A stretch of 64,000 bases of DNA from an uncultured Verrucomicrobiae bacterium (GCA_963726745.1 CAVSDR010000004.1:312687-376686), one strand, 5' to 3'; positions 1 to 58,285 are shown, numbered from the stretch's first letter. Numbers and translations are program-made. The notes: generated by a model from the letters alone, not told the origin.

Positions 1-1388
1 TGGATGTTTTGGAAGTAATGCCCGTACTCGTGGTGGATCACATCCCAGTCGAAGCGATCGAGCTTCAGGATGTGGAGCTGCTTTACCCCGGAATCGAAGA
101 GCGAGGTCGAGCGCGTCGTCGGGAAACGCACGTCCACCTGCGATGGCGCCGTGCCTGCGAGGCCGCCGGCGTAGCTCCCGATCATCACCAGCGCGTGGTG
201 CACCCCGAAGACGGTCTCGTTATCGGCCGCGTTCCCCGCGGTCAGATTGATCGTTAGGCTGGAGCCGTCCGCGACTTCGTTTGTCGTCGGCGAAGTCATC
301 GCGTAGGTCTCGGCCCCGGCCGCGTCGGGCTTGATGTCGCCGATCGGCGAACGCGCGAGCACGCGCACGAAGATGTCCGGATTGCCCTGCAGGGGGCCGT
401 CGTCGTGGGTGAAGGTTGCTGTGTAATTGCCCGCCGCATTCGTCATCACCGTAGTGATCAACTCCGAGCCGACGACGTCTTCATCGCGGATCTCGACCGT
501 CGCCATCGGCACGCCGTGAGTCTTCCCGCCCTTGTCGGTCCAGAGCACTTTGCCGCTCACCGTGATCGTGACCGGCGCCGCGGGCGAGGCGCTGGTTTTT
601 GGCGGCGCCACCGCGCTCGCCGGCAAAGCCGAGGGGATCACGGCGATCGCCTGCTGCAGGCGTTCTTCGGCCACGGTCATCCGTTCGCGGCTCAAGGGCC
701 GCGCGTCCGCCGGCACCGCCGCGGTCACCACCGCCTCCATCGCTGCGCGCGCGCCCACGGCATCGAGTTCGCCAGTCGCGGCCAGCGTTTGCGCGCGCCA
801 GAGAAGCAGGTCGGTGTAGCTCGAGTAGCTCCCCCACAGACGCCGGCCCTCGGCCAGCGCGTAAAGATCCACCCGCCGCAAGTGCAGCACGTTGCCTTTC
901 ACATCCAGCGCCTCGGCAATGATCTGCGCGCGGCCGTTGCCTGCACCGCGTATCGGCAAGGCGGCCTGCACCGTGCGCGTGGCCCCGGCGGTCCAGGGTC
1001 CGCCTAACGAGAGGACGCGCTCGCCATTGGCCAGCACCCCTTCGCCGCTGGTCCGGATGCGCACCGAAGCGGCGTCGGCGTCCAACGCCACGGTCAAGGA
1101 GGCCGGCAATTCCCCCCTCTCCACCGCCCCGTCCCACGAGGCTTCCACCTGAAGCGAGAGCGGGCCCTTGGCCGAGCAATCGATCGATTCGTTAGGCAAA
1201 TGCGGCCGTGCACTCGTTAGGCCTGGACCCGGCGGACGCGGCGGCGGCGGGGCGGCAGCAGCTGATGGCAGCGTGGCGAGAACGAGACCCAATGGGAGCA
1301 GTGCTACCAGGCAGCGCTGCGCGCGAGTTGACCGACGGGCGCGAAACAGGAAGAGACCCAACGCCCACGAAACCGGGGGGAGTTTCAT
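1..1388 (-). CDS. Probable secreted zincin-type metallopeptidase, runs off the left edge (not in the ORF track)
   Basis: Manual translation from ATG 1388 gives 462 open codons: hydrophobic leader, Pro-rich linker, beta-rich domain (VTITVSGKVLWTD...VEIRDEDVVG), then DWDVIHHEYGHYFQ (HExxH) near the edge. Confidence 0.75.
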   Translation of the reverse strand, partial: MKLPPVSWALGLFLFRARRSTRAQRCLVALLPLGLVLATLPSAAAAPPPPRPPGPGLTSARPHLPNESIDCSAKGPLSLQVEASWDGAVERGELPASLTVALDADAASVRIRTSGEGVLANGERVLSLGGPWTAGATRTVQAALPIRGAGNGRAQIIAEALDVKGNVLHLRRVDLYALAEGRRLWGSYSSYTDLLLWRAQTLAATGELDAVGARAAMEAVVTAAVPADARPLSRERMTVAEERLQQAIAVIPSALPASAVAPPKTSASPAAPVTITVSGKVLWTDKGGKTHGVPMATVEIRDEDVVGSELITTVMTNAAGNYTATFTHDDGPLQGNPDIFVRVLARSPIGDIKPDAAGAETYAMTSPTTNEVADGSSLTINLTAGNAADNETVFGVHHALVMIGSYAGGLAGTAPSQVDVRFPTTRSTSLFDSGVKQLHILKLDRFDWDVIHHEYGHYFQNI

Positions 1389-1502
1389 AGCCCCGCCATG
1401 TTGCAGCCGAGGCCCCTTCACCTGACAAGCTAATTTTTCGCGCCGCCGCCGCGCGGTCCATGCTTAGCGGGAGAAGCTAGAAATTTCCGCAAAGAACTCC
1501 GC

Positions 1503-2021
1503 CTAGGGCCGCGGAAAATACGCCAGCGAGACCGACGCCGCCTTTTGACCCGCCAGCCGGCTCAGTTCCCGCAGGAGCGGGTCCACCTTGCTCTCGTTAG
1601 TCAAAGGCGTCTCCCACTGCACCGCGGTGCGCGCAGCCGCCCCGCCCGCGACGATCTCCAGCCGCCGCTCGCCAAAATCGAAGACCTGTCCCTCGCGTTT
1701 TGCGGGCTGGAAATGTTGCAGGTTATTTGCCCGCACGATCTCCCAAAGCTTCCGATATTCCGCTTCCGAAAGCATCGCCTGCGCTTCCTCCGCGACGGCG
1801 CCTTCGCTCCCCCGCCGGACCGCGAGGGTGCCGCTCTTGCCATCCCAACTCGCTTTCACCGTCTCCGTCGGTGCCCCGGGTTTGCCCGGCGTAATGCTGG
1901 CCACGATCTCCGCCGGCACCGGCAACGCCGCGTCGTCGCCAAATCCACAGGAAGGCAGCAACAAAAGCGCGGCGGCCAGCGCAGCGAGCCGACAATCAGC
2001 GCGACGTGTGGTGTGATGCAT
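1503..2021 (-). CDS. Hypothetical lipoprotein
   Basis: Lipobox-like LAALAAALLLLPS-C; start chosen at ATG 2021. Confidence 0.6.
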   Translation of the reverse strand: MHHTTRRADCRLAALAAALLLLPSCGFGDDAALPVPAEIVASITPGKPGAPTETVKASWDGKSGTLAVRRGSEGAVAEEAQAMLSEAEYRKLWEIVRANNLQHFQPAKREGQVFDFGERRLEIVAGGAAARTAVQWETPLTNESKVDPLLRELSRLAGQKAASVSLAYFPRP

Positions 2022-2102
2022 CGGAGCCTCCCCGATCCTGCCTCTTCCCGCGCCCCGTGGTAAAGGACAGACTTCGGCGGCCTCGCGCACCGCCCTGTCG
2101 GC

Positions 2103-3401
2103 TCAGCGCGCTGTCTGTTTTTCCACTCGGCCCGCTTTCATGACAAAGGCGACGCGCTCGGTCACGGTGATGTCGCTCGTGGGATCGCCCGGGAGCGCGA
2201 TGATGTCGGCTGTTTTTCCTTTCTCAAGCGTGCCGGTGGTGGCGGCGATGCCTAACAAGTCAGCGGCGACGGAGGTGGCCGCGCGGAGGGCATCGATCGG
2301 CGTCATCCCAAAGCTGGTCATGAGCGCGAATTCCTTCGCGTTTTCTCCATGCGGGAAGACGCCGGCATCCGTCCCGAAAGCAATCTTCACCCCCAGCTGG
2401 ACCGCGTTGCGAAACATCTCGCTGCGCGCGGCCGCGGCGGCTTTCGCCTTTTCCTGGATCGCGGGCGGATAGGCAGCAATCTTGCCCATGATGTATTCCG
2501 TCGCCTCGAGCGTGGCCACGAGGTAGGTCCCTTTCGCTTTCATTAGGGCGAGCGTGTCCTTCTTCAAAAACGAGCCGTGCTCGATCGAGTCCACGCCGGC
2601 GTTGATCGCTTCCTTGGCCGCGCTGTCGCCGTGGCAATGCACCGCCACCTTCTTCCGCAGCCGGTGCGTCTCGCTCACCAACATCGCGATTTCATCCGGC
2701 GCAAGCTGCGGCACGTCGACCTCGTCCTTCATCGAGAGGACGCCGCCAGAGACCGCCGCCTTGATCACATCCGCGCCGTTCTTGATCTGGTAGCGCACGG
2801 CCTTGCGGATCGCCTCGGGGCCGTCGGCAATGCCATCGAGCTCATTCGGCTCGCGGCCGAAGAGCGCGTCGCGGAAGCCGTTGGTGTCGTCAAAGTGGCC
2901 GCCGGTGGCGCCGATCCCCTTGGTCGCGGCGAGCATGCGCGGTCCGCGCACGAGGCCCTTCTCAATCGCGTCGCGCAGGGCCACGTCGAGGAACGCCTTG
3001 CTTCCGACATCGCGCACGGTGGTGAAGCCGGCCTCCAGCGTTTTCGCCGCGTTCGGGATCGCCTCAAACGCGGAGAGCGGCACGCTCGTCTCGAGCTCGT
3101 TCAGGCGGCGCTCGTTGTAGGGGCGCGAGAAGTCGGAAGTGAGATGCGTGTGCGCATCGATGAAGCCAGGCGAAAGCGTGGCGTCGCCGAGGTCGATCAC
3201 TTGCGCGCCCGGCGGAATGGCGAGATTCGCGCCGGCGTCCACGATCTTGCCGTTCTCCACCAGGACAACCGCGTTCTGCACCAGCCCGGGCGATTTGCCG
3301 TCAAACATCCGCGCCGCTTTCAGCGCAATCACGTCGGCTGCGCGAGCCGTTGGAAGCTGGAGGAGCAAAGTGAGAGCGACGAGGCTGGTGGCGATTTTCA
3401 T
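2103..3401 (-). CDS. Metal-dependent amidohydrolase (Xaa-Pro dipeptidase-like), exported
   Basis: PGFIDAHTH, GFTTVRD, VAVHCHG, SIEHG, FGTDAG motifs; signal peptide. Confidence 0.85.
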   Translation of the reverse strand: MKIATSLVALTLLLQLPTARAADVIALKAARMFDGKSPGLVQNAVVLVENGKIVDAGANLAIPPGAQVIDLGDATLSPGFIDAHTHLTSDFSRPYNERRLNELETSVPLSAFEAIPNAAKTLEAGFTTVRDVGSKAFLDVALRDAIEKGLVRGPRMLAATKGIGATGGHFDDTNGFRDALFGREPNELDGIADGPEAIRKAVRYQIKNGADVIKAAVSGGVLSMKDEVDVPQLAPDEIAMLVSETHRLRKKVAVHCHGDSAAKEAINAGVDSIEHGSFLKKDTLALMKAKGTYLVATLEATEYIMGKIAAYPPAIQEKAKAAAAARSEMFRNAVQLGVKIAFGTDAGVFPHGENAKEFALMTSFGMTPIDALRAATSVAADLLGIAATTGTLEKGKTADIIALPGDPTSDITVTERVAFVMKAGRVEKQTAR

Positions 3402-3493: not shown

Positions 3494-5149
3494 ATGAAAA
3501 CCTTCCTCTGTTCTCTCCTCCTGGCGCTTTCCTTGGTCTCGTTAGGGCAGGCGACGCCGGACAAAGCGCTGGCTAAATTAGCCGACGACTTCTGGACCTG
3601 GCGCGTGGCGACCGCGCCCTTCAGCGGCGACGACGTTAACCGCATGGAGCGCCCCGGCGGCCCGCGCGATTGGTCGGCCGCGGCGATCGCGCAACGGAAG
3701 GCGAAGCTGGCGGAATTTGACGCGCGCTGGAAGCAGCTCGAGCCCGCCAGCTGGCCCATCCCTGAGCAGGTCGACTATCGCCTGATCGGCTCGGCCCTCG
3801 CGCGGGTGCGCTGGGAACTGGAGATCAATCCGCGCTGGCAGCGCGACCCGCTGTTCTATCTCGACCAGACACTGACCGCGCTGGCCGAGGCGCTCACGGT
3901 CCCGGCGCCGTTCGATGAAACCCGCAGCCGCGAGGTGCTTGCACGTCTGGAGAACATCCCCGCGATCCTGGCGGATGGGAGGGCGAACTTGCAGGATCCG
4001 CCCGCGCCTTTCGCCCGCTCCGCAATCGCCGCGCTCGAGGGCGTGACCGCGCGCCTGACCGAAGGAGTGCGCGCGCTGCAGCCTGCAACCACGCTCTCAG
4101 GCGATCGGCTAACGAGTGCTGCTGCCAAAGCGGCCGACGCGCTCGAGCAATACCGCGCCCACCTGCAGGAGCTGCTGCCGTCGTTGCCCGAAAGAACCGC
4201 AGTTGGCCGCGAGGCCTACCTGTTCTTCCTGCGCAACGTCGCGCTCTATCCATTCACCCCGGAGGAGATCCTGGCGATGGGCCGGCAGGAATGGAATCGC
4301 GCGGTCGCTTTCGAAACCTACGAGCGCGAGCGCAACCGCGCCGTCCCGCCGCTGAAAATAGCCGACAACCTGGAGAAGTGGATCAAGGAAACGGCCGCCC
4401 GCGAAGAGCAGATCCGCGCATTCCTCCCGGCGCACAACCTTCTCACGGTGCCGGAGTGGATGCAGCACTACACCCTGCGCCCGATGCCCGCCTATCTGCG
4501 CCTCCTGAACCAGACGGAAGCGGACGACTTCACCGGGCCGACGCGGCTCTCGGAAAATTGCGTGCGCTACGTCGAGCCGCCCTCGGGGAAGATGGGCTAC
4601 TTCATGCGCGCGACCGCGCAGGATCCGCGGCCGTTGATCGTGCACGAGGGCATTCCCGGGCACTACTTCCAGCTCGCGCTCTCGTGGAAACACGAGGACC
4701 CGATTCGTCGCCATTATTACGACTCCGGCGCGAACGAAGGGATCGGCTTCTACGCCGAGGAGATGATGCTGCAGGCGGGGCTCTTCGACGACAGCCCGCA
4801 CACGCGCGAGATCATCTACAACTTCGCCCGGCTGCGCGCGCTCCGGGTGGAAATAGACGTCAAGCTGGCGCTCGGCGAGTTCACGCTCGAGCAGGCGGCA
4901 AAGTATCTCGAGGAGAAGGTGCCGATGGATCCTGCGACCGCCCGCAGCGAGGCGATTGCCTTTGCCTCCGGTCCCGGCCAGGCGCTCACCTACCAGATCG
5001 GGAAGCTGCAGATCATCGGCTTCCTGGCGGACGCGAAGCTAAAGGAAGGCGAGAAGTTCAACCTGCGCGCCTTCCACGATTTCGTGTGGAAGAATGGGAA
5101 CGTCCCAATCCAGCTGCAGCGCTGGGAATACCTCGGCGAAAAGCCCTGA
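3494..5149 (+). CDS. DUF885 family protein (paralogue 1)
   Basis: HEGIPGHYFQ, EGIGFYAE, PGQALTYQIG, FNLRAFHD; signal peptide. Confidence 0.85.
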   Translation: MKTFLCSLLLALSLVSLGQATPDKALAKLADDFWTWRVATAPFSGDDVNRMERPGGPRDWSAAAIAQRKAKLAEFDARWKQLEPASWPIPEQVDYRLIGSALARVRWELEINPRWQRDPLFYLDQTLTALAEALTVPAPFDETRSREVLARLENIPAILADGRANLQDPPAPFARSAIAALEGVTARLTEGVRALQPATTLSGDRLTSAAAKAADALEQYRAHLQELLPSLPERTAVGREAYLFFLRNVALYPFTPEEILAMGRQEWNRAVAFETYERERNRAVPPLKIADNLEKWIKETAAREEQIRAFLPAHNLLTVPEWMQHYTLRPMPAYLRLLNQTEADDFTGPTRLSENCVRYVEPPSGKMGYFMRATAQDPRPLIVHEGIPGHYFQLALSWKHEDPIRRHYYDSGANEGIGFYAEEMMLQAGLFDDSPHTREIIYNFARLRALRVEIDVKLALGEFTLEQAAKYLEEKVPMDPATARSEAIAFASGPGQALTYQIGKLQIIGFLADAKLKEGEKFNLRAFHDFVWKNGNVPIQLQRWEYLGEKP

Positions 5150-5169
5150 GCTTGCTGTCTAAAAACGAA

Positions 5170-5226: not shown

Positions 5227-5652
5227 TTAGTCGACGACTTCGAGGCCCATCTGCCGGGCGGTGCCGGCGATGATCCGGAAGCCCGCTTCGTCGGAACGCG
5301 AGTTCAGGTCTTTGCCCTTGGTCTTGACGATCTCCATGATCTGCTTGCGCGTGACTTTGCCGACCTTGGTCTTGTTCGGCTCTTTCGAACCGGCGGCAAT
5401 ATTCGCAGCCTTCTTCAAGAGGATCGCGGCGGGCGGGCTCTTGGTGATGAAGGTGAAGCTCTTGTCCTTGAAGACGGTGATCACGACCGGGAGGATGTCG
5501 CCGGCCTGCTTCTGGGTAGCGGCGTTAAATTCCTTGCAGAACGCCATGATGTTGACGCCCCGAGGCCCGAGCGCGGTGCCGACGGGAGGCGCCGGGTTGG
5601 CTTGGCCTGCAGGGATCTGCAGTTTGATGTGAGCTACGATTTCTTTGGCCAT
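5227..5652 (-). CDS. rplK: 50S ribosomal protein L11
   Basis: [20 protein letters not shown]...[10 protein letters not shown]. Confidence 0.98.
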
Positions 5653-7994: not shown

Positions 7995-8245
7995 CGCGTT
8001 TCAAATCTCGCTGTCTGCCGTCGTCCCGCCTAACGAGTCCACCGACAAACCGGTCGCTTCCCGCCAGAGAGGCAAAAGTCCCAAAGCCGCATCAAACTTC
8101 GCAGGTTGAACGACCGTGGGACCTTTTCGTTCCAGCAAAAAGCGTCGGCAAGCTAGCAGCCGACCTCGGGGTGTCAAAGAAATTTCTCCCCCGGGCGCAG
8201 GGGAATTTCCCCCAGCCGCGCAGGAACTTTGCCGCCCCGCTTTTG

Positions 8246-19767: not shown

Positions 19768-19778
19768 GAAAGGATTCG

Positions 19779-39951: not shown

Positions 39952-39979
39952 GTAAGGGGAGCGAAGGAGTTTTCATTCG

Positions 39980-47644: not shown

Positions 47645-50600
47645 ATGAACGAGCGCGATTTCCTGGCGCAGTTGGAAGCGGCCAATACCGAAGAGCTGGC
47701 GCAATTGCTCCGCCGGCCGAGCGCGGAGGAAGAGCGGCTGCTCGAGATTTACTTCGGCGCGGAGCGGCTCCGGCGCCTGCGGCAAGTGGCGCGTTCCTCG
47801 CAGCGCCGCGCGCTCAGCCGCGGGAACGTGGTCGTGCTCCACGGGATCATGGGCGGCGAGCTCACGGTTTTTCCGGCGAACGAAAAGAGCCAGCACATTT
47901 GGATGAACATCCCGCGCCTGGTCCGGGGCGCGGTCGGCTGGCTGCGCATGCGGGACGATTTTTCCTCGCAGTTCGAGATCCGGCCCACCGGGATGATCAA
48001 GAAATACTACGCCGAGCAGCTCCTGGGTTTGGCCGCCGGCGGCTGGAGCGTGCTCGGGATTTACTATGACTGGCGGCTCGACCTCGCGCTCGTGGCCGAT
48101 GGCGTGCGCCGGCAAATAGACAGCTTTTTCGGCCCCACGGCGCCGGTCAACCTGGTGGCGCACTCCATGGGTGGGCTGGTCTCACGCACCTACATCCAGC
48201 GCCATCCGGACCGCTGGAAGCGCGGCGGACGACTCGTTATGCTGGGCACGCCGAATCACGGATCGTTCGCCATTCCGCAGGTGATCACCGGCGCCTACGA
48301 TACCATCCGCAAGCTCGCCCTGGTCGATCTCTCGCATAACCTCCGCGACCTCTGCGCCATCCTGAATGGCTTCCCCGGTTCGCTCGAAATGCTCCCCTCG
48401 CCCCTGCAAATGCCGGCGATGGAACGGATGTATGACGCCAAGCTTTGGGCGCCGTGGAATCTCCCGCAGCGCATCCTCGATCTCGCGCGCAAAAGCCACG
48501 AACGCCTCGCGCCGATCGTCGATGGCGCGCGCATGTCTTACATCGCCGGTTGCAACCAGGTGACGAAAGTGGGCGTGCGCGATTGGAACCGCCTCGACCG
48601 CGCCGACAGCTACACCGACTCGATGGCCGGCGACGGGACGGTGCCGCACGCGCTCAGTTTTCTCGAGGACGGCGGCCAGCGCATCCCGACGTATTTTGTC
48701 GCAATGTTCGCACGGGGCGCTGCCGAATCGCGCGGAGGTGATCGCGGCCACACTGCAGATTCTCGACCGGGGAAAATGCGACCTGCCCACTTCCGTGCCG
48801 ACGCCGCGCGGGCTGCGCTCGGCCACCGCCAGCGCGGAGGAAAAACGCGCGCGCGAACTCGCGGAGGAAGAGCGGCTGGAGGATCTGTCGCGCCGCGTGC
48901 GCACGCGCTCGCGCGCAGTCGTGGAGGTGCACCAAACACCGCTTTCAGCCGACGAGATGGAGGCCAACGCGCTTCTGGTGCGCAGTTTCCTGGAGGACGA
49001 TTCCGGCAGCGCCGGTGCCGATTTCGCCGAGCCCGCCGACCGCGCGGAGGACGAAGCCCAAGCCGCGGCCGCCGAAGAAGGAGCCAGCCCCGTCGATCGT
49101 CCTCGAGCTGGTGCGCGGGGGAATCCAGGAGTTAGACAGCACTTTGAAAGCGGATGCGCTCGCGGTGGGGCATTACGTGGCCGTGGCGCCGCAAAACGCC
49201 GAGCTCGCGATCGATCGCGCGATCAGCGCCGCGCTCGGCACCCCGGACGATCTCTTGATTACCGCGCTCTGCCGCCGCGGCTCGGTCGTGGGCGAGCTGG
49301 CGCAAAATTTCCTCCTGCCCGACCCGCGCGTGCCCGGCCGCGTGATCGTGCTCGCGGGCATGGGGCGGCCTGGAACTTTTCGCGAAGCCGAGCTCACGCT
49401 GCTCGTGCGCGAGCTCATCTGGATGCTCGGGCGCACGGGCAAGCAGCGGCTGGCGACCGTCCTCATCGGCGCCGGCGCGGGCAACCTGGAAACCGCGGAT
49501 GCCGCGCGTGGCTGGGTGCGCGGGATCCGGCGCGCGCTCTACGATGCGCAGGCCAGCGGCCAGCCGCGGCTCGAGCGCGTGACCTTTGTCGAATACTCCG
49601 AGCTCAATTTCCTGCGGCTGCATTACGCACTCGAAAATGCCGGCAGTTTCCTCGCGGATGATCCGGCGGCACCGCTCACGATCGACTATCGCGGGCCCGA
49701 TGCGGCTGCGATCCGGCGTTCGAAAAAAGCCGCCGAGCGCGCGGTCGCCGCGGCCAGCGTGCGCGAATTGCACCGCTCCTTTGCCCTGCGCACCGGCAGC
49801 GGCCCGGACCCGACGCCGATCCGCCTAACGATTCAATTACAGGGCGACGTCTTCCAGTTTGCCGCGCTCACGCACGAGGCCTCGGTGCCGCAACGCGAGA
49901 CGCGGATCGACCCGCGACTGGTCGAGGAGGCGAACGATCTCCTACCGGCCGCGACCACCCTGGAGGAGCAACTCAACCACGGCCATCTGCTCGGGCGTTT
50001 GCTCCTCCCGCCGGACCTGCGCGAGCTGATCGCGCGCGAGCATTTGCCGGTGGTGCTGGCGCTCGACCGCACGACGGCGGCGATCCATTGGGAAATGCTC
50101 GCGCTCGCGGGCGCGGAGGCCTTCGCGGAGTTCGATCCCGAGCGCTTCCTCGGCACCGGGCTGGGCGTGACCCGGCAACTGCGGACCACCTTCGCGCAAC
50201 TCCCGGAGCCGCCGATGATGACCGGCCGCCCGCTGCGCGTGCTCGTGGTGGCCGATCCCGCAGAGGACGCGCCGCTCCCGGGCGCGCAGGAGGAAGGCGA
50301 AGCGGTCGCGGCGATCTTCGAGGAGTTCGGACGCTTCGCCGCGCGCGAGGTGGAAGTGGTGCGGCTGCTCGGGCCGCGACAGGCCACGCGCGTGACCGTG
50401 CTCGACCAACTGGTGAACCATCGCTTCGACCTGCTCCATTTCTCCGGGCACTGCTTTTACGATCGCGAGACGCCGCGCAAATCCGGCTGGATCTTTACTG
50501 GCCACGAAGTGCTGAGCGCGGATGAATTGAGCCGGGTCGATCGCGTGCCGCGCTTCGTTTTCTCAAACGCCTGCGAAAGTGGCGTGGTCCCGGACCAGCG

Positions 50601-51031: not shown

Positions 51032-51247
51032 ATGACCCTCGTTCTCCTGGAGAAAAAATTTAGTCAGCGCCTCGCGGATAACACCGACCTGGTCGATGGC
51101 TTCAACAACGCCCTCGACCAAAGCTACAGCGCGATCCGCGACGCGGCCGCGCGCGAATGGCAGCGGCGTTTCGGCGCCAGCGACCCGAGCGATGCCTGCG
51201 TGAGCGTGCGCATCACCGGTTTTGGCTCGCGCACCCTCGCGGCCTAA
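51032..51247 (+). CDS. Small hypothetical protein (71 aa)
   Basis: ATG 32 nt after the CHAT stop; natural-looking composition; fills the gap. Confidence 0.55.
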   Translation: MTLVLLEKKFSQRLADNTDLVDGFNNALDQSYSAIRDAAAREWQRRFGASDPSDACVSVRITGFGSRTLAA

Positions 51248-51258
51248 CGACTCCCCGT

Positions 51259-51768: not shown

Positions 51769-51871
51769 GCGCCGCCACTGGTAACAGCCGCGCGCGGCGC
51801 TGGCAATACCGGCGGCGCCCATCTTGCCGGCTAATTGACCGCCCTGCGCGTCGCCCGCATAGTGCGGGCCC

Positions 51872-53668
51872 ATGTCCATCGAGCTGACGCGCAATTTTTG
51901 CATCATCGCGCACATCGATCACGGCAAGACCACCTTGTCGGATCGTTTGCTCGAGCGCACGGGCACGATCCAGGACCGCGAGCGCCAGGATCAACTCCTC
52001 GATTCCATGGACCTGGAACGCGAGCGCGGGATCACGATCAAGTCGCACCCGGTGGCGATGCGTTACACCGCGAAGGATGGGCAGAAGTATCGGCTGAATC
52101 TCTCGGACACGCCCGGCCACGTCGATTTCGCCTACGAAGTTTCGCGCTCGCTCGCGGCCTGCGAAGGCGCGCTCTTGATCGTGGATGCCGCGCAAGGCGT
52201 GGAAGCGCAGACCGTGGCCAACGTTCACCTCGCCCACAAGCAAGGCCTCACGATCGTGCCGGTGATCAACAAGATCGACCTCCCGAACGCGGACATCCCC
52301 GCGGTCCACCGGCAGATCGAGGAGATCCTGCAGATTCCGGCCGAGGAAGCGATCGAGTGCAGCGCCAAGATGGGCATCGGGATCGAGGAGATTCTCGAGG
52401 CCGTGGTCCATCGCATCCCGCCGCCTAAAAAACCGGCCGACGAAGTCCTGCGCGCGCTCGTCTTCGATTCCGTCTTCGATGTTTACCGCGGCGTCATCGC
52501 CTACGTGCGCGTCATGTCCGGCAGCATCCAGGCCGACCAACAGGTGCGGATGATGAACAACGACTCGCGCCACGAGATCAAGGAAGTGGGCGTCTTCACG
52601 CCGAAGATGTTCGTCCAGCCAAAGCTGAACGCGGGCGACGTCGGCTATTTCATCGCCAACATCAAGACCACCGCCGACATCAAAATAGGCGACACCATCA
52701 CCGACCTGCGCAATCCCGCGAAGGAGCCGCTCCCCGGCTTCCAGGAGATTCACCCGATGGTCTTCAGCGGGATCTACCCGATCAACACCGCCGATTTCGA
52801 GCACTTGAAAAGCGCGATCGCGAAGCTGCGCTTGAACGATTCCGCTTTCGGCTATCAACCGGAAAGCTCGGTCGCGCTCGGCTTCGGTTTTCGCTGCGGC
52901 TTCCTCGGCCTGCTCCACATGGAGATCATCGTCGAGCGGCTCCGGCGCGAGTACGACATGGACATCATCGCTACCTCGCCCAGCGTGGTCTACGAAGTTC
53001 TAAACACCCGCGGCGAAGTCATGCTGGTCGATAACCCCGCGCATCTCCCCGACCCGAGCATCATCGAGGAAATCCGCGAGCCGATCGTGCGCGCCTACGT
53101 CCTTTGCCCTAACGAGAGCATCGGCGACATCCTCCAGCTCATCATGGAGAAGCGCGGGACGATGGATCACACCGAGACGCTCGATACCCGCCGCGTCATG
53201 CTTCATTGCGAGCTCCCGCTGAACGAAATCCTGGTCGATTTTAACGACAAGATTAAGTCCATCACCCGCGGCTACGGCTCGATGGATTACGAGCATGCCG
53301 GCTATCGCGCCGACAAACTGGTCAAGCTCGACCTGCTAGTGAACGGCGAACCGGTCGATGCCTTCAGCATGATCGTGCATCGCGACCGCGCCGAGGCCCG
53401 CGGCCGGCAGATGGCCGCGAAGCTCAAGGAAGTGATCCCGAACCAGCTTTACCAGGTCGCCATCCAGGCGGCGATTGGCGGCAAGATCATCGCCCGCGAA
53501 AGCGTCAGCGCCTTGCGCAAGGACGTCACCGCGAAATGCTACGGCGGCGACATCAGCCGGAAGCGCAAACTCCTCGAGAAACAAAAAGAGGGAAAGAAGC
53601 GCATGAAGAGCATCGGCCGGATCAACATCCCGCAGGAAGCCTTCATCCAGGTGCTGAAGACGCAGTAG
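51872..53668 (+). CDS. lepA: Elongation factor 4
   Basis: AHIDHGKTT, DTPGHVDF, GFRCGFLGLLH, KCYGGDISRKRKLL. Confidence 0.98.
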   Translation: MSIELTRNFCIIAHIDHGKTTLSDRLLERTGTIQDRERQDQLLDSMDLERERGITIKSHPVAMRYTAKDGQKYRLNLSDTPGHVDFAYEVSRSLAACEGALLIVDAAQGVEAQTVANVHLAHKQGLTIVPVINKIDLPNADIPAVHRQIEEILQIPAEEAIECSAKMGIGIEEILEAVVHRIPPPKKPADEVLRALVFDSVFDVYRGVIAYVRVMSGSIQADQQVRMMNNDSRHEIKEVGVFTPKMFVQPKLNAGDVGYFIANIKTTADIKIGDTITDLRNPAKEPLPGFQEIHPMVFSGIYPINTADFEHLKSAIAKLRLNDSAFGYQPESSVALGFGFRCGFLGLLHMEIIVERLRREYDMDIIATSPSVVYEVLNTRGEVMLVDNPAHLPDPSIIEEIREPIVRAYVLCPNESIGDILQLIMEKRGTMDHTETLDTRRVMLHCELPLNEILVDFNDKIKSITRGYGSMDYEHAGYRADKLVKLDLLVNGEPVDAFSMIVHRDRAEARGRQMAAKLKEVIPNQLYQVAIQAAIGGKIIARESVSALRKDVTAKCYGGDISRKRKLLEKQKEGKKRMKSIGRINIPQEAFIQVLKTQ

Positions 53669-53778: not shown

Positions 53779-54246
53779 ATGACCTCCCTGCTTCTCCTCG
53801 CCCTCGCCCTTGGTTTTGCCACTGGCCTGCGGTCGTTCGTGGCTCCAGCTGCACTGGCTTGGGGGGTGCATTTCGGATGGCTCTCGCTCGACGGCACCTG
53901 GCTGCAGTTTCTTCATTCACCCGTCGCCCTCGCGTTGCTCACGCTCTGCGCGGTCGGCGAACTCATCGGCGACAAGTTGCCGATTATTCCCGCCCGGATC
54001 ACCGCCGGTCCATTGGGCTTTCGCATTGTCGCGGGCGCGGTCGCGGGCGCTGGTCTCGCCCTGGCCCACGGTGGAGCGGTGTGGCTGCCTATTTTCGCCG
54101 GCATCGCGGGCGCCCTGGCGGGCGCTTTCGGTGGCTATTTCGCCCGCCGTTACCTGACCAGACACGCGAAATTGCCCGATCTCCCAGTCGCGCTCCTCGA
54201 GGACGCGCTCGCGCTGGGCCTGGCCTTCTTCGCCGTCACTCGTTAG
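53779..54246 (+). CDS. Membrane protein, DUF4126-like
   Basis: GLRS, GELIGDKLP, VALLED. Confidence 0.7.
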   Translation: MTSLLLLALALGFATGLRSFVAPAALAWGVHFGWLSLDGTWLQFLHSPVALALLTLCAVGELIGDKLPIIPARITAGPLGFRIVAGAVAGAGLALAHGGAVWLPIFAGIAGALAGAFGGYFARRYLTRHAKLPDLPVALLEDALALGLAFFAVTR

Positions 54247-54300
54247 GCGGCGAAGCGATCTTCTCCGTGCGTCCGGGGCGCGCACCTGCTACTTTTCGCG

Positions 54301-56051
54301 ATGCGAAAATTGCTTTTGGGATTCTTGCTCGCAGTCACAGCGTCGGCTTTCGCCGAACTCCCGCCGGTCGCCGAGCGCGTGAAAGCGCAGGATGCCTTGT
54401 TCGAGGAATTCTACGAAACCGGCCTGAAGAATTCTCCGGAACGCGCGACCGCTTACGGCGATTACCGGTATAATTCTCTCCTCGGCCAATACTCCCTCGC
54501 GGAAATCGCCCGCCAGCACGCGCAGGCGGAAGACTTCCTCAAGCGCCTCAAAGCCATCCCGACCGACGGCATGGACGACAAGAACCTCCTGAGCCATCGC
54601 CTGCTCGAGCGCCAGCTCGAACGCGAGGACGTCAACTATGCGCTCAAGAACTACGAGATGCCGGTGAACCAGCAGAACGGCGTGCACACGCGCCTGGCCG
54701 ATCTCCCGCTCAGTGTGCCGCTCGATTCCGTGGAGCACTATCAGGATTACATCGCTCGCTTGGGACAAATCCCGCGCGTCCTCGACCAGGTTACCGAAGT
54801 GATGCGGCAGGGAATGAAGGACGGCCTGATGCCGCCGAAGCTATTGCTCGAGAAGCTGCCCGCCCAGGCCGAAGGCATCATCGCGGCGAATCCTTTCCTT
54901 CTCCCGCTCAAGAAATTTCCCGAGAGCTTCTCCGCCGAGGAGAAGAAGAAATTAACCAGACGAGATGACCAAGGCCGCGAACGGACGAAGTTTTACCGGC
55001 CTACAGGAAGTTCGCTGAGTTCCTCCGCACCGACTACGCCCCGAAAGGCCGCGACGAACTCTCCATTGAGAGCCTGCCCGACGGCCCACGCCGTTATGCC
55101 GAGGCGGTCAAGATGATGACCACGATGGAAGTCACCCCCGCGGAGGTGCACGAGATTGGGTTGAAAGAAGTCGCCCGCATCACCGAGGAGATGACGAGCC
55201 TGGCGAAGGCGAATGGTTACAAGGACCTCGCCGCTTTCCGCGAAGCGATCAATCACGACCCGAAGTGGAAGCCCAAGAGCGAGCAGGAAATCGTGGAGGA
55301 CTTTGCCAAATACATCCACCAGATGGAGCCGCGGCTCCCCGAGCTCTTCGGCCTGCTCCCGAAATCTCCGGTGACCGTCGAGGCCATCCCCGATTTCGCC
55401 AAGGCCGAGGCCACGCACTACGTCGGCGGCACGCCTGATGGGAAGCGTCCCGGCCGCGTGGTTGTGGCCGTGGCCGATCCCGAAAAGCGCACCCTCGTGC
55501 TCGATGAAGCCGTCGCCTACCACGAGGGCGTTCCCGGCCATCACATGCAGATCAGCATCGCGCAGACACTCGAAGGCTTGCCGAAGTTCCGCCTCCACGG
55601 CGGTTACTCCGCCTACGCCGAAGGCTGGGCGCTTTACTCCGAGGAACTCGGCAAGGAGATCGGCTTCTACCAGGACCCGGTCTCTGATTACGGCCGGCTC
55701 AATTCCGAGCTCTTCCGCGCCGTCCGCCTGGTGGTCGACACCGGCATTCACGACAAGAAGTGGAGCCGCGAGAAGGTAATCGATTACATGCACCAAAACG
55801 ACGTCAACGACGCCGTCGCCCAGACCGAGACCGACCGCTACATCGCCTGGCCCGGCCAGGCTTTAGCCTACAAGATGGGGCAGCTAACGATTCGTAAGCT
55901 GCGCGAAGAAGCGAAAGCGAAATTAGGCGACAAGTTCGACCTCAAAGGCTTCCACGACGAACTCCTCAACGGCGGCGCCATGCCGCTCGACCTCCTCCAG
56001 GAACGCATCCACCGCTGGATCGAAACGCAAGCCGCCCAGAATGCCGCTTAA
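54301..56051 (+). CDS. DUF885 family protein (paralogue 4); two single-base insertions near 54958 and 54984
   Basis: HEGVPGHHMQ, EGWALYSE, VVDTGIH, PGQALAYKMG. Confidence 0.85.
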
Positions 56052-56877: not shown

Positions 56878-57318
56878 GTGAGTCTTGCCCCCATCCGCGC
56901 CGGCGCGCTCTTCCTTCTCCTCGCGATGTCCCTCTCCTCTGCCGCCAGCGCCAGCCCGCTCGACTCTTACCGCGATAAGAACCGGCTGATTGTTTTCTCC
57001 GTGCCCACCGCCGCGGCACGCACGGAGCTGGCAAACACCCTCGCCGCGCACCGTGCTCAATTGAAAGATCGCGACCTCCTCGTGCTCGACCTTTCCCCCG
57101 GCGAGAAGGCAATCCCTGGCACCATCCGCCTGCAGCCCGAGGCCGCCGCCGCCCTCCGCCGCCAGCTCTCGTTAGGGAAAACGACCGAGCGCGCCGTCTA
57201 CATCCTCATCGGCAAAGACGGCGGCGTGAAAGCCCGCACCACCGGCCTGCTCGATCTCCCCCGCTGGTTCGCCCTCATCGACCAAATGCCCATGCGCCAG
57301 CGCGAGATGCGTCGTTAG
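56878..57318 (+). CDS. DUF4174-like exported protein
   Basis: KNRLIV, LIGKDGGVK, IDQMPMRQREM. Confidence 0.75.
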   Translation: MSLAPIRAGALFLLLAMSLSSAASASPLDSYRDKNRLIVFSVPTAAARTELANTLAAHRAQLKDRDLLVLDLSPGEKAIPGTIRLQPEAAAALRRQLSLGKTTERAVYILIGKDGGVKARTTGLLDLPRWFALIDQMPMRQREMRR

Positions 57319-57370: not shown

Positions 57371-57461
57371 AATTTGGAAACCAGGAAGCCAGAAAAAGCA
57401 GAGGAATCAGGAGCGGAGGAAAGCTCCAGACTCGGCTTTCTGGTTTCCCGGCTTCCGAATT
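57371..57461. repeat. Imperfect palindromic element with 9-bp internal periodicity
   Basis: AATTTGGAAACCAGGAAGCCAGAAA versus reverse complement of 57437-57461, 21/25 identical, all mismatches transitions. Confidence 0.6.
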
Positions 57462-57478
57462 CTTCGAATCCCCGGCCC

Positions 57479-58204
57479 CTAAGTCGCCGCTGAGCGCCCG
57501 AGGTGCGACGCGATCAGCTCGATCTCCGACCGGCACAGGCAAGGCTGTTGCCGCGCGATGTAAGCCGTCAGCGTCGTCGGGGTAAAGACGCGCGCCTCCG
57601 TCGTCCGCCAGTCATCCCGCACCCGCCAGTCGCCCACAAAGGCCACCAGCGGCTTGACCCATACCTCTCGCTGGCAATTCTCCCGGATCATCCGGTTCAC
57701 CTCCCGGGCGTTCCCGCGCGCCTGCGCCAGGGAATCATTCTCCTCCGGGCGCCCACCCACGAAGAGCCCTTGTCCGTTGCGAAAACTGATCTCGCCCGAC
57801 CCGCTGCGGAATTTCGTCTCGATCGCATAGACCCCCGATGGTCCCACGACCACGTGATCGATGTTGAACCGGCCTTCCCGCACGAGATCGTGGATCACCT
57901 GGTAACCCGCGGCGCGCAGCCCATCCAACGCCTCCGCCACCATGAGCTCTCCGCGCTCCCCGCGATTCAGCCGGCGGAATTTTGCCCGCAACCTCAAGAA
58001 AGCGACGGCGGTCGCTCCGGTCGCAGCCACCGCCAGGCAGAGCCAAAAGCGCGGCTGCGGTGGAGTGTTCGAAGCGGCTTGGATGGCCTCCACGAGCCAG
58101 ATTATCCAAAAGCCTCCCGCAGCGAAGTAATACGGGATAAATTGGTTATCGAGTAACCACTCCTTTTGGTCCCGGAGCGATTGCCCTGGCAGTCGACGTG
58201 TCAT
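57479..58204 (-). CDS. NERD domain (nuclease-related) protein with N-terminal TMs
   Basis: GERGE, NIDHVVVGPSGVYAIETK. Confidence 0.85.
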   Translation of the reverse strand: MTRRLPGQSLRDQKEWLLDNQFIPYYFAAGGFWIIWLVEAIQAASNTPPQPRFWLCLAVAATGATAVAFLRLRAKFRRLNRGERGELMVAEALDGLRAAGYQVIHDLVREGRFNIDHVVVGPSGVYAIETKFRSGSGEISFRNGQGLFVGGRPEENDSLAQARGNAREVNRMIRENCQREVWVKPLVAFVGDWRVRDDWRTTEARVFTPTTLTAYIARQQPCLCRSEIELIASHLGRSAAT

Positions 58205-58285
58205 GGCCAAGGAGCAGTGCGATTCCCGTGCCATCGTTAGCTAGAGATGTGGCGCACGCCCTTGCACTAGCGGCCGAGATGCCGC

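What the first reader, a model, noticed from the sequence alone, without database searches (positions are those of the whole stretch)
251..58240. Highly iterated non-palindromic motif GCCTAACGAG, about once per 1.1 kb: candidate uptake sequence or chromosome-wide binding site
Seen, counted by eye so a minimum: CTAACGA starts at 1004, 4109, 8030, 10328, 11881, 13398, 13683, 19560, 27887, 28501, 30812, 32109, 33978, 34742, 39492, 42244, 43876, 46187, 46969, 47566, 49825, 51244, 53109, 55884. Its complement TCGTTAG starts at 251, 1189, 1214, 1594, 3539, 11699, 12814, 18658, 19776, 20095, 22276, 22677, 23022, 25709, 30179, 33523, 34492, 35696, 36437, 36803, 36927, 39063, 39977, 41274, 44859, 47457, 54240, 57169, 57312, 58234. 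Twenty copies are the full 10-mer. A rough base-composition estimate assuming 65% GC predicts about 4 seven-mers and fewer than 1 ten-mer. Copies sit in-frame in conserved genes in different frames and use codons rare in a GC-rich genome: GTC-GTT-AGG and TCG-TTA-GGC in purL, CCT-AAC-GAG in lepA, CTA-ACG in an aldo/keto reductase. The selection or drive therefore acts on DNA, not protein. Known: Neisseria DUS and Pasteurellaceae USS are non-palindromic 9-10-mers, strand-symmetric, about 1 per kb and accommodated in genes, whereas Chi and KOPS are strand-skewed and HIP1 is palindromic. Inference: a DUS-like self-recognition signal or nucleoid-protein site. I know of none described for this lineage.
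Basis: partly seen in the sequence, partly recalled or inferred. Interest (0 to 1): 0.92.

Follow-up and report, generated by a model that had tools for sequence, protein, structure and literature searches.

The report
Uptake-signal-like DNA word, two soil phyla
The nine-letter DNA word GCCTAACGA is written hundreds to thousands of times through the genes of one family of uncultured soil Verrucomicrobia, and its first eight letters also through some Gemmatimonadetes-type genomes and a phage, in the way Neisseria and Haemophilus tag their own DNA for uptake, but what reads it is unknown.

Summary
The genome holds 820 ten-mers, its commonest 10-mer, and 604 lie in genes against 9.6 under a synonymous-codon shuffle.

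- **A DNA-level word.** All four stop-free frames are used, both strands are equal, there is no significant replichore polarity, copies are evenly spaced, and a low-GC polysaccharide island lacks it.
- **Sharply defined.** The core is GCCTAACGA. One-off core variants fall below expectation.
- **Family-wide.** All 151 genomes of 36 genera hold the 8-mer CCTAACGA. In 55 it is at least 4 times its control, with up to 4744 copies and flank dialects. It was not enriched in 74 genomes of 15 sister families.
- **Beyond the family.** GCCTAACG is also hyper-abundant in 17 of 251 Gemmatimonadetes-type genomes and in a phage's structural genes.
- **A second word.** This genome carries a nearly private word, GYYGNCTAA, in 1139 copies.

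No reader protein was found: three methyltransferases and ComP were tested and failed. My best reading, at about 45%, is an uptake-sequence-like kin tag spread by biased DNA acquisition. Its function is untested.

This scan had already met the same word in other genomes (e1-4256882, e1-6288550). I found no published description.

The parts
1002..1011 (+). M1 full 10-mer GCCTAACGAG
1213..1222 (-). M1 full 10-mer
8028..8037 (+). M1 full 10-mer
10326..10335 (+). M1 full 10-mer (overlaps M2 at 10323)
12813..12822 (-). M1 full 10-mer
13396..13405 (+). M1 full 10-mer
20094..20103 (-). M1 full 10-mer
23021..23030 (-). M1 full 10-mer in purL (TCG-TTA-GGC); overlaps M2 at 23025
30178..30187 (-). M1 full 10-mer
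33522..33531 (-). M1 full 10-mer
33976..33985 (+). M1 full 10-mer
36436..36445 (-). M1 full 10-mer
36926..36935 (-). M1 full 10-mer
39062..39071 (-). M1 full 10-mer
41273..41282 (-). M1 full 10-mer
42242..42251 (+). M1 full 10-mer
46185..46194 (+). M1 full 10-mer (overlaps M2 at 46182)
46967..46976 (+). M1 full 10-mer
47564..47573 (+). M1 full 10-mer
54239..54248 (-). M1 full 10-mer (overlaps M2 at 54243)
251..257 (-). M1 core CTAACGA
1189..1195 (-). M1 core
1594..1600 (-). M1 core
3539..3545 (-). M1 core
4109..4115 (+). M1 core
11699..11705 (-). M1 core
11881..11887 (+). M1 core
13683..13689 (+). M1 core
18658..18664 (-). M1 core at the stop-codon end of the called aldo/keto reductase gene 18661-19884 (-)
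19560..19566 (+). M1 core
19776..19782 (-). M1 core
22276..22282 (-). M1 core in purL (GTC-GTT-AGG)
22677..22683 (-). M1 core in purL (TCG-TTA-GGC)
25709..25715 (-). M1 core (overlaps M2 at 25712)
27887..27893 (+). M1 core in aldo/keto reductase (CTA-ACG)
28501..28507 (+). M1 core
30812..30818 (+). M1 core
32109..32115 (+). M1 core
34492..34498 (-). M1 core
34742..34748 (+). M1 core
35696..35702 (-). M1 core
36803..36809 (-). M1 core
39492..39498 (+). M1 core
39977..39983 (-). M1 core (overlaps M2 at 39980)
43876..43882 (+). M1 core
44859..44865 (-). M1 core
47457..47463 (-). M1 core
49825..49831 (+). M1 core
51244..51250 (+). M1 core
53109..53115 (+). M1 core in lepA (CCT-AAC-GAG); 15 of 28 genus orthologues have it here, 13 have CCG-AAC-GAR
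55884..55890 (+). M1 core
57169..57175 (-). M1 core
57312..57318 (-). M1 core
58234..58240 (-). M1 core; last copy before the nearly word-free last 5.8 kb of the window
2252..2258 (+). tolerated variant CTAACAA
63272..63278 (+). tolerated variant CTAACAA
3568..3576 (+). M2 GYYGNCTAA (second word of this genome)
3578..3586 (-). M2
5154..5162 (+). M2
5227..5235 (-). M2
11643..11651 (-). M2
11762..11770 (+). M2
12258..12266 (+). M2
16589..16597 (+). M2
17832..17840 (-). M2
18189..18197 (-). M2
23256..23264 (-). M2
25814..25822 (-). M2
30718..30726 (+). M2
31776..31784 (+). M2
36081..36089 (-). M2
38599..38607 (+). M2
39155..39163 (-). M2
39545..39553 (-). M2
42038..42046 (+). M2
43146..43154 (+). 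M2
44703..44711 (-). M2
47373..47381 (-). M2
49132..49140 (-). M2
51060..51068 (-). M2
51826..51834 (+). M2
52420..52428 (+). M2
55923..55931 (-). M2

Best explanation
GCCTAACGA (here usually GCCTAACGAG) is a lineage 'kin tag' of the uptake-sequence type. It is a short asymmetric word read on DNA itself by a still unidentified protein on the route by which cells acquire DNA: uptake at the surface or periplasm, or the first steps after entry. Shown: the word is built by point substitutions at DNA level, in any frame and on either strand, throughout one family, and it is kept at orthologous sites between word-rich species. Inferred: fragments that carry the word are taken up or kept more often. 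Alleles with the word therefore replace alleles without it by homologous recombination (a molecular drive, as modelled for USS and DUS). That would explain three things: the word fills native genes, it is spaced evenly, and it is missing from recently acquired DNA. The phage would either profit from the tag or be subject to the same drive.
For: DNA level, not protein level. The 10-mer occurs 604 times in CDS against 9.6 under a synonymous shuffle. All 4 stop-free frames are used (326, 119, 101 and 54 copies). 69 of 820 copies span a gene end, and 44 + 33 supply a stop codon. 1036 of 2872 TTA codons and 319 of 1503 CTA codons lie inside M1 or M2.

Strand symmetry. Counts are 445/375. Neighbouring sites share a strand in 1123 of 2180 pairs (0.515, p 0.16). 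Spearman of word skew against GC skew is -0.05, p 0.71. Cumulative walks give p 0.19-0.83.

Even spacing. 6.0% of gaps are under 200 bp against 12.2% for a Poisson process.

Island depletion. There are 12 gaps over 10 kb against 3.6 expected. The longest, C7:60.0-85.0 kb, and a neighbouring 9.5-kb gap lie at 58% GC in a run of polysaccharide-synthesis genes. The window's last 5.8 kb, a decayed HsdM/DarT stretch, holds no CTAACGA and only one CTAACAA.

Sharp specificity. One-off variants are tolerated only at positions 1, 2, 10 and at 8 (G to A). One-offs at core positions 3-7 and 9 number 94 against 148 expected.

Clade trait with dialects. All 24 other genomes of the genus searched hold the 10-mer; counts run from near the control (51 against 40) to 1549 against 57. 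CCTAACGA is at least 4 times control in 55 of 151 family genomes and at least 8 times in 37, reaching 4744 copies in 3.2 Mb. It is among the most over-represented words in all 8 relatives sampled, even word-poor ones. The 9-mer shows 0-40 copies, never above control, in 74 genomes of 15 other families of the order. The 10th base and flanks differ by genus.

Sites arise by substitution. In 28 aligned lepA genes the word appears by synonymous changes: CCT against CCG in 15 of 28, and TTA against CTC/CTG in 7 of 28.

Sites are maintained where the word is rich. 12 of 20 G000 core sites are kept in word-rich G013 (control 7-mers 19%). Only 8 of 94 are kept in word-poor G002 (control 17.6%).

Machinery that could take up DNA is present: ComEC (also in 142 of 151 family genomes), DprA, a PilM-to-secretin cluster, three small pilins and a 412-aa T2SSE-family ATPase.

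Gene flow between genera exists. An HsdM-like gene is 86-99% identical across genera whose aligned DNA is otherwise about 75% identical.
Against: No uptake experiment exists and no reader is known. ComP_DUS matches only below threshold (21.9 and 19.1 bits by genome search; 20.2 and 15.9 by hmmscan; cut-off 27.3), and an E. coli control rings the same way. The only ComEA-type helix-hairpin-helix domain of the family sits on a secreted SNase-like nuclease. G000's copy stops before that domain, and only half an HhH remnant lies elsewhere. Across 36 genera, presence of that domain does not track word density (Spearman 0.13, p 0.44). The genome-level difference (median ratio 4.3 against 2.2, p 0.004) is inflated by kinship. 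ComEC is equally present in word-poor genera. There are no inverted-pair terminators as in Neisseria (7 and 4 close opposed pairs). The phage shows 16 consecutive copies on one strand. Samples of 120-140 kb from three word-rich relatives show 62-63% one-strand bias (p 0.02-0.04 each). Natural transformation has not been reported for this phylum in the papers I could search.
Confidence: 0.45

Rival explanations
1. The word is a self tag read after entry or during DNA breakage. A helicase-nuclease or defence system spares, or stops degrading, DNA that carries the word (Chi-like logic). Chromosomes and the phages that must survive in these hosts are both selected or driven to carry it.
For: A phage contig with terminase, portal, major head and tape-measure genes carries 29 copies in 45.4 kb. 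16 consecutive copies lie on one strand although nearly all its genes point the other way. Mild regional strand bias of 62-63% appears in three relatives' samples. The density of about 0.24-0.4 per kb is of the order I recall for E. coli Chi. Incoming linear DNA protected by the word would produce the same drive as biased uptake.
Against: G000 shows no significant polarity. The sign of the bias relative to the gene-strand majority is inconsistent among the three relatives. Words are equally sense and antisense there. A 9-10-nt core with about 17 bits is longer than the Chi sites I recall (5-8 nt).
Confidence: 0.2
2. The word is a HIP1-like, methylation-linked word. An orphan methyltransferase marks it, and a methyl-directed repair ratchet or methylation-dependent DNA acceptance creates and keeps copies (Elhai's model for cyanobacterial HIPs; HIP1 is now reported to raise transformation when methylated).
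For: One-off variants are tolerated mainly at the ends of the word and depleted in the core, a pattern the abstract of PMC4390886 reports for HIP1. Alternate words in single lineages (M2 in G000) recall alternate HIPs. PMC13756078 (abstract and sections 4 and 14 read) reports methylation-dependent enhancement of transformation by HIP1. An N6_N4 methyltransferase is core to the family, in 142 of 151 genomes.
Against: That methyltransferase also occurs at 60-65% identity in 9 of 74 genomes of sister families that lack the word. It has no orthologue in 15 of 15 word-rich Gemmatimonadetes-type genomes, only 33-40% hits in 3 rich and 3 poor. The C5 methyltransferase was found in 1 of 5 test genomes and not in either M2 genome. 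The HsdM-like gene is mobile, found in 36 of 151, and unrelated to word density. The word is not a palindrome. Differences from orthologous sequence involve 2-4 of the 7 core bases, not a single change per site.
Confidence: 0.1
3. The word is a binding site of a nucleoid-associated or chromosome-organising protein, kept by weak selection at thousands of places.
For: Copies are evenly spaced. Sites are conserved between word-rich species. The abstract of PMC5861425 argued this for HIP1.
Against: Intergenic density is only modestly above coding density (0.27 against 0.21 per kb). Density varies about 30-fold between species of one genus with about 75% identical DNA, with near loss in some. That is hard to square with an essential structural role. 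The phage copies and the second phylum are not predicted. No candidate protein is known.
Confidence: 0.1
4. The enrichment is an artefact, a peptide or codon effect, or a dispersed mobile element (REP/MITE).
For: None found.
Against: The word is present in 151 independent assemblies. It stands 63-fold above the synonymous shuffle and uses four frames. The flanks carry almost no information beyond position +11. Aligned orthologues show substitutions, not insertions.
Confidence: 0.01

Closest known systems
USS of Pasteurellaceae (uptake signal sequence, 9-nt core plus weaker flanks)
   Same: A 9-nt asymmetric core with weakly informative downstream positions (T at +11, W at +14 of the word). Hundreds to thousands of copies on both strands. 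Written into genes by substitution. Evenly spaced. Clade-wide, with subtype dialects.
   Different: A different word and different phyla. Uptake bias is not shown. No Haemophilus-like competence regulon was examined. Density in this genome (0.39 nine-mers per kb) is lower than the roughly 0.8 per kb I recall for H. influenzae, though relatives reach 1.5 per kb.
DUS of Neisseriaceae (10-12 nt, read by the minor pilin ComP; eight dialects)
   Same: A non-palindromic word of about 10 nt with family-level distribution and dialects. It is accommodated in coding DNA and depleted in an island.
   Different: There is no ComP homologue above threshold. There is no habit of inverted pairs at terminators. 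The word reaches across two phyla, which no DUS is known to do.
HIP1 (GCGATCGC) and alternate HIPs of cyanobacteria
   Same: Hyper-abundant, spread by substitution, and conserved between genomes. Lineage-specific alternates exist. One-off variants are tolerated at the ends of the word. HIP1 is now proposed as an uptake or transformation enhancer (PMC13756078).
   Different: HIPs are palindromes tied to cognate orphan methyltransferases. This word is asymmetric, and none of three methyltransferases tested tracks it.
Chi and KOPS/AIMS (polar chromosome words)
   Same: A short asymmetric word at a fraction of a copy per kb. A phage carries it, with a long one-strand run.
   Different: There is no significant replichore polarity in this genome. 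The specificity is longer and sharper.

Membership tests
DNA uptake sequences (DUS/USS class) | Short asymmetric word, hundreds to thousands of copies, far above composition- and codon-aware expectation | tested here: met
   820 ten-mers against 6.1 (order-3 Markov); 604 in CDS against 9.6 (codon shuffle).
DNA uptake sequences (DUS/USS class) | Both orientations about equal, no replication polarity | tested here: met
   for G000. Caveat: 62-63% local bias in samples of three relatives.
DNA uptake sequences (DUS/USS class) | Sits inside genes in several frames, made by substitution rather than insertion | tested here: met
DNA uptake sequences (DUS/USS class) | Restricted to a clade, with dialects among sub-clades | tested here: met
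   Unexpected extra: the 8-mer also occurs in 17 of 251 genomes of a second phylum's order.
DNA uptake sequences (DUS/USS class) | Under-represented in recently acquired DNA | tested here: met
   polysaccharide island; window end. Only these examples and a gap count (12 against 3.6) were examined.
DNA uptake sequences (DUS/USS class) | More evenly spaced than random | tested here: met
   gaps under 200 bp are 6.0% against 12.2%.
DNA uptake sequences (DUS/USS class) | Competent cells take up word-bearing DNA preferentially | not testable with these tools
   Needs a culture or an expressed receptor.
DNA uptake sequences (DUS/USS class) | Complete transformation machinery (T4P or pseudopilus, secretin, ComEA, ComEC, DprA) | tested here: inconclusive
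   ComEC, DprA, PilM-to-secretin cluster, pilins and ATPases are present. A ComEA-type HhH2 domain was not found intact in G000, whose assembly is 94.7% complete.
DUS of Neisseriaceae | ComP minor pilin receptor (Pfam ComP_DUS) | tested here: not met
   best scores are 21.9 bits (genome search) and 20.2 bits (hmmscan), below the 27.3 cut-off, and mostly over the generic pilin helix.
DUS of Neisseriaceae | Frequent inverted pairs forming terminators | tested here: not met
   only 11 opposed pairs within 60 bp among 2187 sites.
HIP1-type iterated words | Palindromic octamer | tested here: not met
   The word and its complement differ.
HIP1-type iterated words | Cognate orphan methyltransferase co-distributed with the word | tested here: not met
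   Three methyltransferases tested and none co-distributes. Other enzymes and actual methylation were not tested.
Chi / KOPS polar words | Strong co-orientation with replication (switch at ori/ter) | tested here: not met
   GC skew is weak in this draft genome, so the replichores are only roughly placed.
Chi | RecBCD or AddAB present | not tested
REP / MITE dispersed elements | Conserved flanks or hairpin, insertion relative to orthologues | tested here: not met
   no flank information; no indels at sites.

The most novel reading that the evidence does not exclude
One 8-letter tag, GCCTAACG, defines a DNA-exchange community that crosses phylum borders in soil. A transferable word-reading system is shared by one Chthoniobacterales family and a subset of Gemmatimonadetes-type bacteria. 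Their phages copy the tag to pass as kin. This genome is caught evolving a second specificity, GYYGNCTAA, which shares GNCTAA with the first, after losing the DNA-binding end of its nuclease-HhH protein.
Probability: 0.2. Interest if true: 0.95.

Novelty: new variant of a known kind. Interest (0 to 1): 0.8.

Why it matters
Uptake sequences are textbook knowledge for only two proteobacterial families, and cyanobacterial HIP1 has only recently been proposed as a third case. A word with the same population signature in abundant, uncultured soil Verrucomicrobia and in Gemmatimonadetes-type bacteria would have several consequences.

- Natural transformation, or another word-guided form of DNA acquisition, may shape the genomes of major soil lineages.
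- The word offers a simple sequence marker for native against foreign DNA, for phage-host assignment and for binning in these groups.
- It offers a concrete handle (word-bearing against scrambled DNA) for making these organisms genetically tractable.
- Sharing of one word by two phyla and a phage, and a second word arising in a single species, are not features of the known systems. They make the evolution of such specificities directly testable.

Tried and rejected
1. **Synteny-based orthologous comparison.** I fetched about 80 kb around lepA from five genus mates. Only about 2.4 kb around lepA aligned to the window, so gene order is not conserved. I replaced this with genome-wide blastn of all fetched pieces.
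2. **A replacement dialect in word-poor genomes.** K-mer scans of 200-320 kb from G002, G144, G080 and G096 found no other dominant word. They showed only weak enrichment of the same one. G098 has a shifted dialect.
3. **Methyltransferase as writer or reader.** The N6_N4 enzyme, the C5 enzyme and the HsdM-like enzyme were each tested against the distribution of M1 and M2, and none fits.
4. **ComP-like receptor.** Only sub-threshold pilin-helix matches appeared. I did not fold these proteins.
5. **ComEC as a correlate.** It is present in 142 of 151 genomes regardless of word density. Three genomes show split matches (G005, G045, G083). G005 also has another gene split, which suggests assembly indels, so I draw nothing from it.
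6. **ComEA-type domain as a correlate.** It is suggestive at genome level and not significant at genus level.
7. **Chi/KOPS reading.** Rejected for G000 on four polarity tests.
8. **Word in LepA-neighbourhood loci.** The 73 loci from many phyla held 0-2 copies each.
9. **Viral scan with two 9-mers 400-430 nt apart**. 11 of 12 hits were chance or local repeats, with 2-4 copies on one strand. One was a real word-rich phage.
10. **Tool errors.** A first attempt to centre a search on a locus failed and was redone through handles.

Full report
**1. The observation**

The window contains 20 exact GCCTAACGAG, 9 on the + strand and 11 on the - strand. Dinucleotide-preserving shuffles give a mean of 0.11. 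It also contains 54 CTAACGA (24 +, 30 -) against a mean of 3.12.

The whole genome was laid: 3.41 Mb, 7 contigs, 64% G+C, with the window at C4:312687-376686. It holds 820 ten-mers (445/375), 1312 GCCTAACGA and 2025 CTAACGA. The ten-mer is the commonest 10-mer of the genome, and all seven contigs carry the word.

I called genes with a simple codon-usage caller (2634 genes, 83% of bases). I then shuffled synonymous codons within each gene 60 times:

| Word | Observed in CDS | Expected |
|---|---|---|
| 10-mer | 604 | 9.6 |
| 9-mer | 921 | 22 |
| 7-mer | 1484 | 128 |

So the enrichment is real, genome-wide, and not a by-product of composition, codon usage or protein sequence.

**2. Anatomy of the word**

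A logo of all 2025 core sites reads G(0.87) C(0.75) CTAACGA G(0.64) T(0.44) n n W(0.71). There is essentially no information further out, so this is not a longer repeat or a mobile element.

The spectrum of single-mismatch variants is unusually sharp.
- Variants at positions 1, 2 and 10, and G to A at position 8, are themselves 9-56 times over-represented.
- Variants at positions 3-7 and 9 total 94 copies against 148 expected, below background.
- The effective motif in this genome is S-N-CTAAC-R-A-V.

Placement of the 820 ten-mers:
- 151 are intergenic and 69 span a gene end.
- The word holds TAA, and TAG on the other strand; 44 + 33 copies supply a stop codon.
- 220 are sense and 380 antisense.
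- All four stop-free frames are used, with xxC-TCG-TTA-GGC the favourite (326 copies).
- 36% of all TTA codons (1036 of 2872) and 21% of CTA codons (319 of 1503) in called genes lie inside this word or the second word described below.

In the window the word sits in purL, an aldo/keto reductase, lepA and many other ordinary genes.

**3.

*Polarity.* None of these tests shows significant polarity in G000:
- Word skew against GC skew in 50-kb bins: Spearman -0.05, p 0.71.
- Neighbouring sites share a strand in 1123 of 2180 cases, 0.515, p 0.16.
- Heterogeneity among 50-200-kb bins: p 0.06-0.10. Cumulative orientation walks on the four large contigs: p 0.19-0.83.
- The two largest contigs show opposite relations between the walk and the GC-skew minimum.

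GC skew is weak in this draft, so the replichores are only roughly known.

In 120-140-kb samples of three word-rich relatives I saw 62-63% one-strand bias, p 0.02-0.04 each. Words there are equally sense and antisense, and the sign is inconsistent relative to the majority gene strand. A weak regional bias therefore cannot be excluded, but nothing resembles Chi or KOPS.

*Spacing.* Gaps under 200 bp are half as frequent as in a Poisson process (6.0% against 12.2%). Opposed close pairs are rare.

*Islands.* There are 12 word-free gaps longer than 10 kb against 3.6 expected. The longest (C7:60.0-85.0 kb) and a neighbouring 9.5-kb gap lie at 58% G+C in a run of surface-polysaccharide genes. That run holds GT2 glycosyltransferases, DegT aminotransferases, a Wzy-type ligase and an ABC transporter. 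The last 5.8 kb of the window is a decayed HsdM gene and a truncated DarT gene. It has no CTAACGA and only one CTAACAA.

**4. Relatives**

LepA of the window is 75-79% identical to named Chthoniobacterales, Spartobacteria and Terrimicrobiaceae MAGs. This supports the earlier agents' label of a soil Verrucomicrobium.

- **Genus.** All 24 other genomes searched hold the ten-mer. Counts run from about the control level (51 against 40 in G002) to 1549 against 57 in G024.
- **Family.** All 151 genomes (36 genera) hold CCTAACGA. It is at least 4 times its reversed control in 55 genomes and at least 8 times in 37, with up to 4744 copies in 3.2 Mb.
- **Sister families.** In 74 genomes of the 15 other families of the order, the 9-mer has 0-40 copies, never above control.
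- **Sampled relatives.** K-mer scans of 120-320 kb from eight relatives show the same 9-mer among the most over-represented words everywhere, even in 'poor' genomes (0.09-0.81 core sites per kb). The 10th base is fixed only in some genera. One genus uses nCTAACGAGAa.

So the trait is old in the family, its intensity varies about 30-fold, and its flanks form dialects. Counts for G001, G008, G183, G042, G046, G053 and G169 rest on unpublished genomes.

**5. How sites arise and persist**

In 28 aligned lepA genes (83-90% identical) the word appears at orthologous codons through synonymous changes:
- CCT-AAC-GAG in 15 genomes against CCG-AAC-GAR in 13.
- TCG-TTA-GC in 7 against TCG-CTC/CTG.
- Singletons in the richest genomes, scattered over the genus.

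Genome-wide blastn of the fetched pieces (about 75% identity) gives this retention of G000 core sites:

| Relative | G000 core sites kept | Control 7-mers identical |
|---|---|---|
| G013 (word-rich) | 12 of 20 | 19% |
| G002 (word-poor) | 8 of 94 | 17.6% |
| G018 | 1 of 13 | 18.9% |
| G005 | 4 of 23 | 19.0% |
| G014 | 7 of 29 | 19.9% |

At non-conserved sites the relative differs at 2-4 of the 7 bases. Sites are therefore actively kept where the word is rich. Where it is poor, they sit at the fastest-evolving positions.

**6. A second word**

After masking the first word, a second family of enriched words emerged: G-Y-Y-G-N-CTAA.
- GYYGGCTAA has 1139 copies in the genome.
- 862 lie in CDS against 87 under the codon shuffle, on both strands and in several frames.
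- The fifth base is free and the two G's are strict.
- It shares G-N-CTAA with the first word.
- The window holds 33 copies of GYYGNCTAA against 4 expected.
- Among 151 family genomes it is above control only in G000 (1139 against 190), G046 (555 against 156; another genus, unpublished) and mildly G015 (354 against 211). All others are below control.
- Of 74 aligned G000 sites, only 1 is shared with any relative.

This genome thus carries a near-private, evidently recent word beside the family word.

**7. Beyond the phylum**

A note of this scan (e1-6288550) said that some Gemmatimonadaceae and a phage carry CGTTAGGC. I tested both claims.

*Second phylum.* I searched the order of G244, the genome behind a locus whose record is titled Gemmatimonadetes bacterium.
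- The 9-mer is at least 4 times control, with at least 50 copies and both strands equal, in 17 of 251 genomes. Examples: 996 against 21, 824 against 50, 802 against 56.
- About ten more genomes stand at 2-4 times control, and most others are below control.
- Samples of two rich genomes show that their word is the 8-mer GCCTAACG with a free ninth base (90 copies against 7.3 expected in 102 kb).

*Phage.* A scan of viral contigs gave 12 hits, and 11 were chance or local repeats. The twelfth is IMGVR_UViG_3300010373_000065.
- It is 46 kb at 67% G+C, with terminase, portal, scaffold, major head and tape-measure genes.
- It holds 29 copies in the 45.4 kb I could read, in the free-ninth-base dialect.
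- Orientation is mixed up to 15.4 kb, then 16 consecutive copies lie on one strand (18.0-39.1 kb), although nearly all genes point the other way.

I cannot explain that run.

**8. Search for a reader**

*Uptake machinery.*
- G000 has ComEC, DprA, a PilM-to-secretin cluster, a GspD/GspE pair, a T2SS operon, a 412-aa T2SSE-family ATPase, three 131-134-aa pilins and a minor-pilin-like trio.
- ComEC is in 142 of 151 family genomes irrespective of word density.
- ComP_DUS matches only below threshold.
- The family's only ComEA-type HhH2 domain is the C-terminus of a secreted SNase-like nuclease, and a full domain occurs in 79 of 151 genomes.
- The richest genera have that domain and several poor genera lack it. 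Three poor genera also have it, and the genus-level correlation is nil (Spearman 0.13, p 0.44). The genome-level difference is inflated by kinship.
- G000's own copy stops right after the nuclease domain. The other M2-rich genome, G046 (unpublished), has the domain split over two frames. This may be coincidence.

*Methyltransferases.*
- A family-core N6_N4 enzyme (142 of 151) also occurs in 9 of 74 sister-family genomes that lack the word. It has no orthologue in 15 of 15 word-rich genomes of the other phylum.
- A C5 enzyme was found in 1 of 5 test genomes.
- An HsdM-like gene is mobile, 86-99% identical across genera, present in 36 of 151 and unrelated to the word.

So no reader is identified.

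**9. Reading**

Protein-level, artefact and mobile-element explanations are excluded. What remains is a word read on DNA.

The whole set of population features matches what is known for USS and DUS and for no other described class of asymmetric word. That set is substitution origin, frame independence, strand symmetry, even spacing, island depletion, clade restriction with dialects, and retention in rich species with turnover in poor ones. The drive by biased acquisition explains them together.

I therefore hold an uptake-sequence-like kin tag as most likely, at about 0.45. I keep three rivals:
- A post-entry or Chi-like self tag (0.2), favoured by the phage's one-strand run.
- A HIP1-like methylation-linked word (0.1). 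This rival overlaps with the best reading, because HIP1 is now argued to enhance transformation (PMC13756078: abstract and sections 4 and 14 read; PMC4390886 and PMC5861425: abstracts read).
- A nucleoid protein site (0.1).

Membership in DUS proper fails on ComP and on terminator pairs. 'Works like an uptake sequence' remains open.

**10. Novelty**

- An exact-word search of the paper library found only primers (130 papers hold one of the four strings, and none of the 20 listed concerns a genome word).
- 'DNA uptake sequence' with Verrucomicrobia gave 3 incidental papers.
- 'Uptake sequence' with Gemmatimonad gave none.
- Natural transformation in Verrucomicrobia gave 2 incidental papers.
- Subscription journals are not covered.

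This scan had met the same 9-mer in another Chthoniobacterales genome (e1-4256882, and probably e1-2962804 and e1-3907105), and the 8-mer in a phage (e1-6288550).

- The sharp one-off profile.
- The family and order boundaries.
- Retention against turnover at orthologous sites.
- The near-private second word.
- Exclusion of three methyltransferases and of ComP.
- The nuclease-HhH observation.
- My own confirmation of the cross-phylum and phage occurrences.

Noticed in passing
window 58534-60299: A decayed defence stretch. A type I HsdM gene is split over two frames (HsdM_N in 58534-59064 and 58889-59929; the N6_Mtase match ends at profile position 184 of 311). It is followed by a DarT (ssDNA thymidine ADP-ribosyltransferase) fragment covering 95 of 201 profile positions. 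The surrounding last 5.8 kb of the window has 59.5% G+C and no CTAACGA.
   Followed up: partly
window 10439-11476 (+): A prepilin-type ORF: N_methyl 30.7 bits, with the pilin helix similar to PilA/geopilin chains. It has a sub-threshold ComP_DUS match (15.9 bits) and an arginine-rich tail that looks out of frame. My gene caller did not accept it.
   Followed up: partly
G000 C6:484-1455 (L218), also G018:C7:491-1426, G015:C16:487-1456: An HsdM-like N6 methyltransferase gene is 86-99% identical across genera whose other DNA is about 75% identical. It often sits about 480-490 nt from a contig start, is broken into six pieces in G002, and occurs in 36 of 151 family genomes. This is a mobile restriction-modification gene moving within the family.
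   Followed up: yes
G000 C4:17239-17874 (-); G002 L127:13172-14215: The family's ComEA-like HhH2 domain is fused to a secreted staphylococcal-nuclease-like domain (SNase 32 bits, HHH_3 55 bits in G002). In G000 the gene ends right after the nuclease part.
   Followed up: yes
L260-L263 (IMGVR_UViG_3300010373_000065): A phage contig with 29 GCCTAACG. 16 consecutive copies lie on one strand between 18.0 and 39.1 kb, opposite to the genes. The meaning is unknown.
   Followed up: partly
G000 genome-wide: Hexamer tandem arrays are common. GCCAACGCCAAC occurs 146 times and arrays of the GAGTCG/CCGACT type about 50 times, probably repeat-protein genes or satellites.
   Followed up: no
G187:C14:36544-42299, G028:C7:94047-95472, G308:C3:304640-307008: Genomes that otherwise lack the word hold tight clusters of 4-8 copies, all on one strand and 350-1250 nt apart. 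These could be repeated gene modules or DNA acquired from a word-bearing lineage.
   Followed up: no
G000 C7:49300-85007: A low-GC (58%) stretch dominated by surface-polysaccharide genes, also encoding a 1870-aa DMFA2_C/DUF4082/fn3 surface protein. It has almost no copies of either word.
   Followed up: yes
window 3437-5146, 15561-17354, 34799-36544: Three paralogous DUF885 genes lie in one 64-kb window.
   Followed up: no
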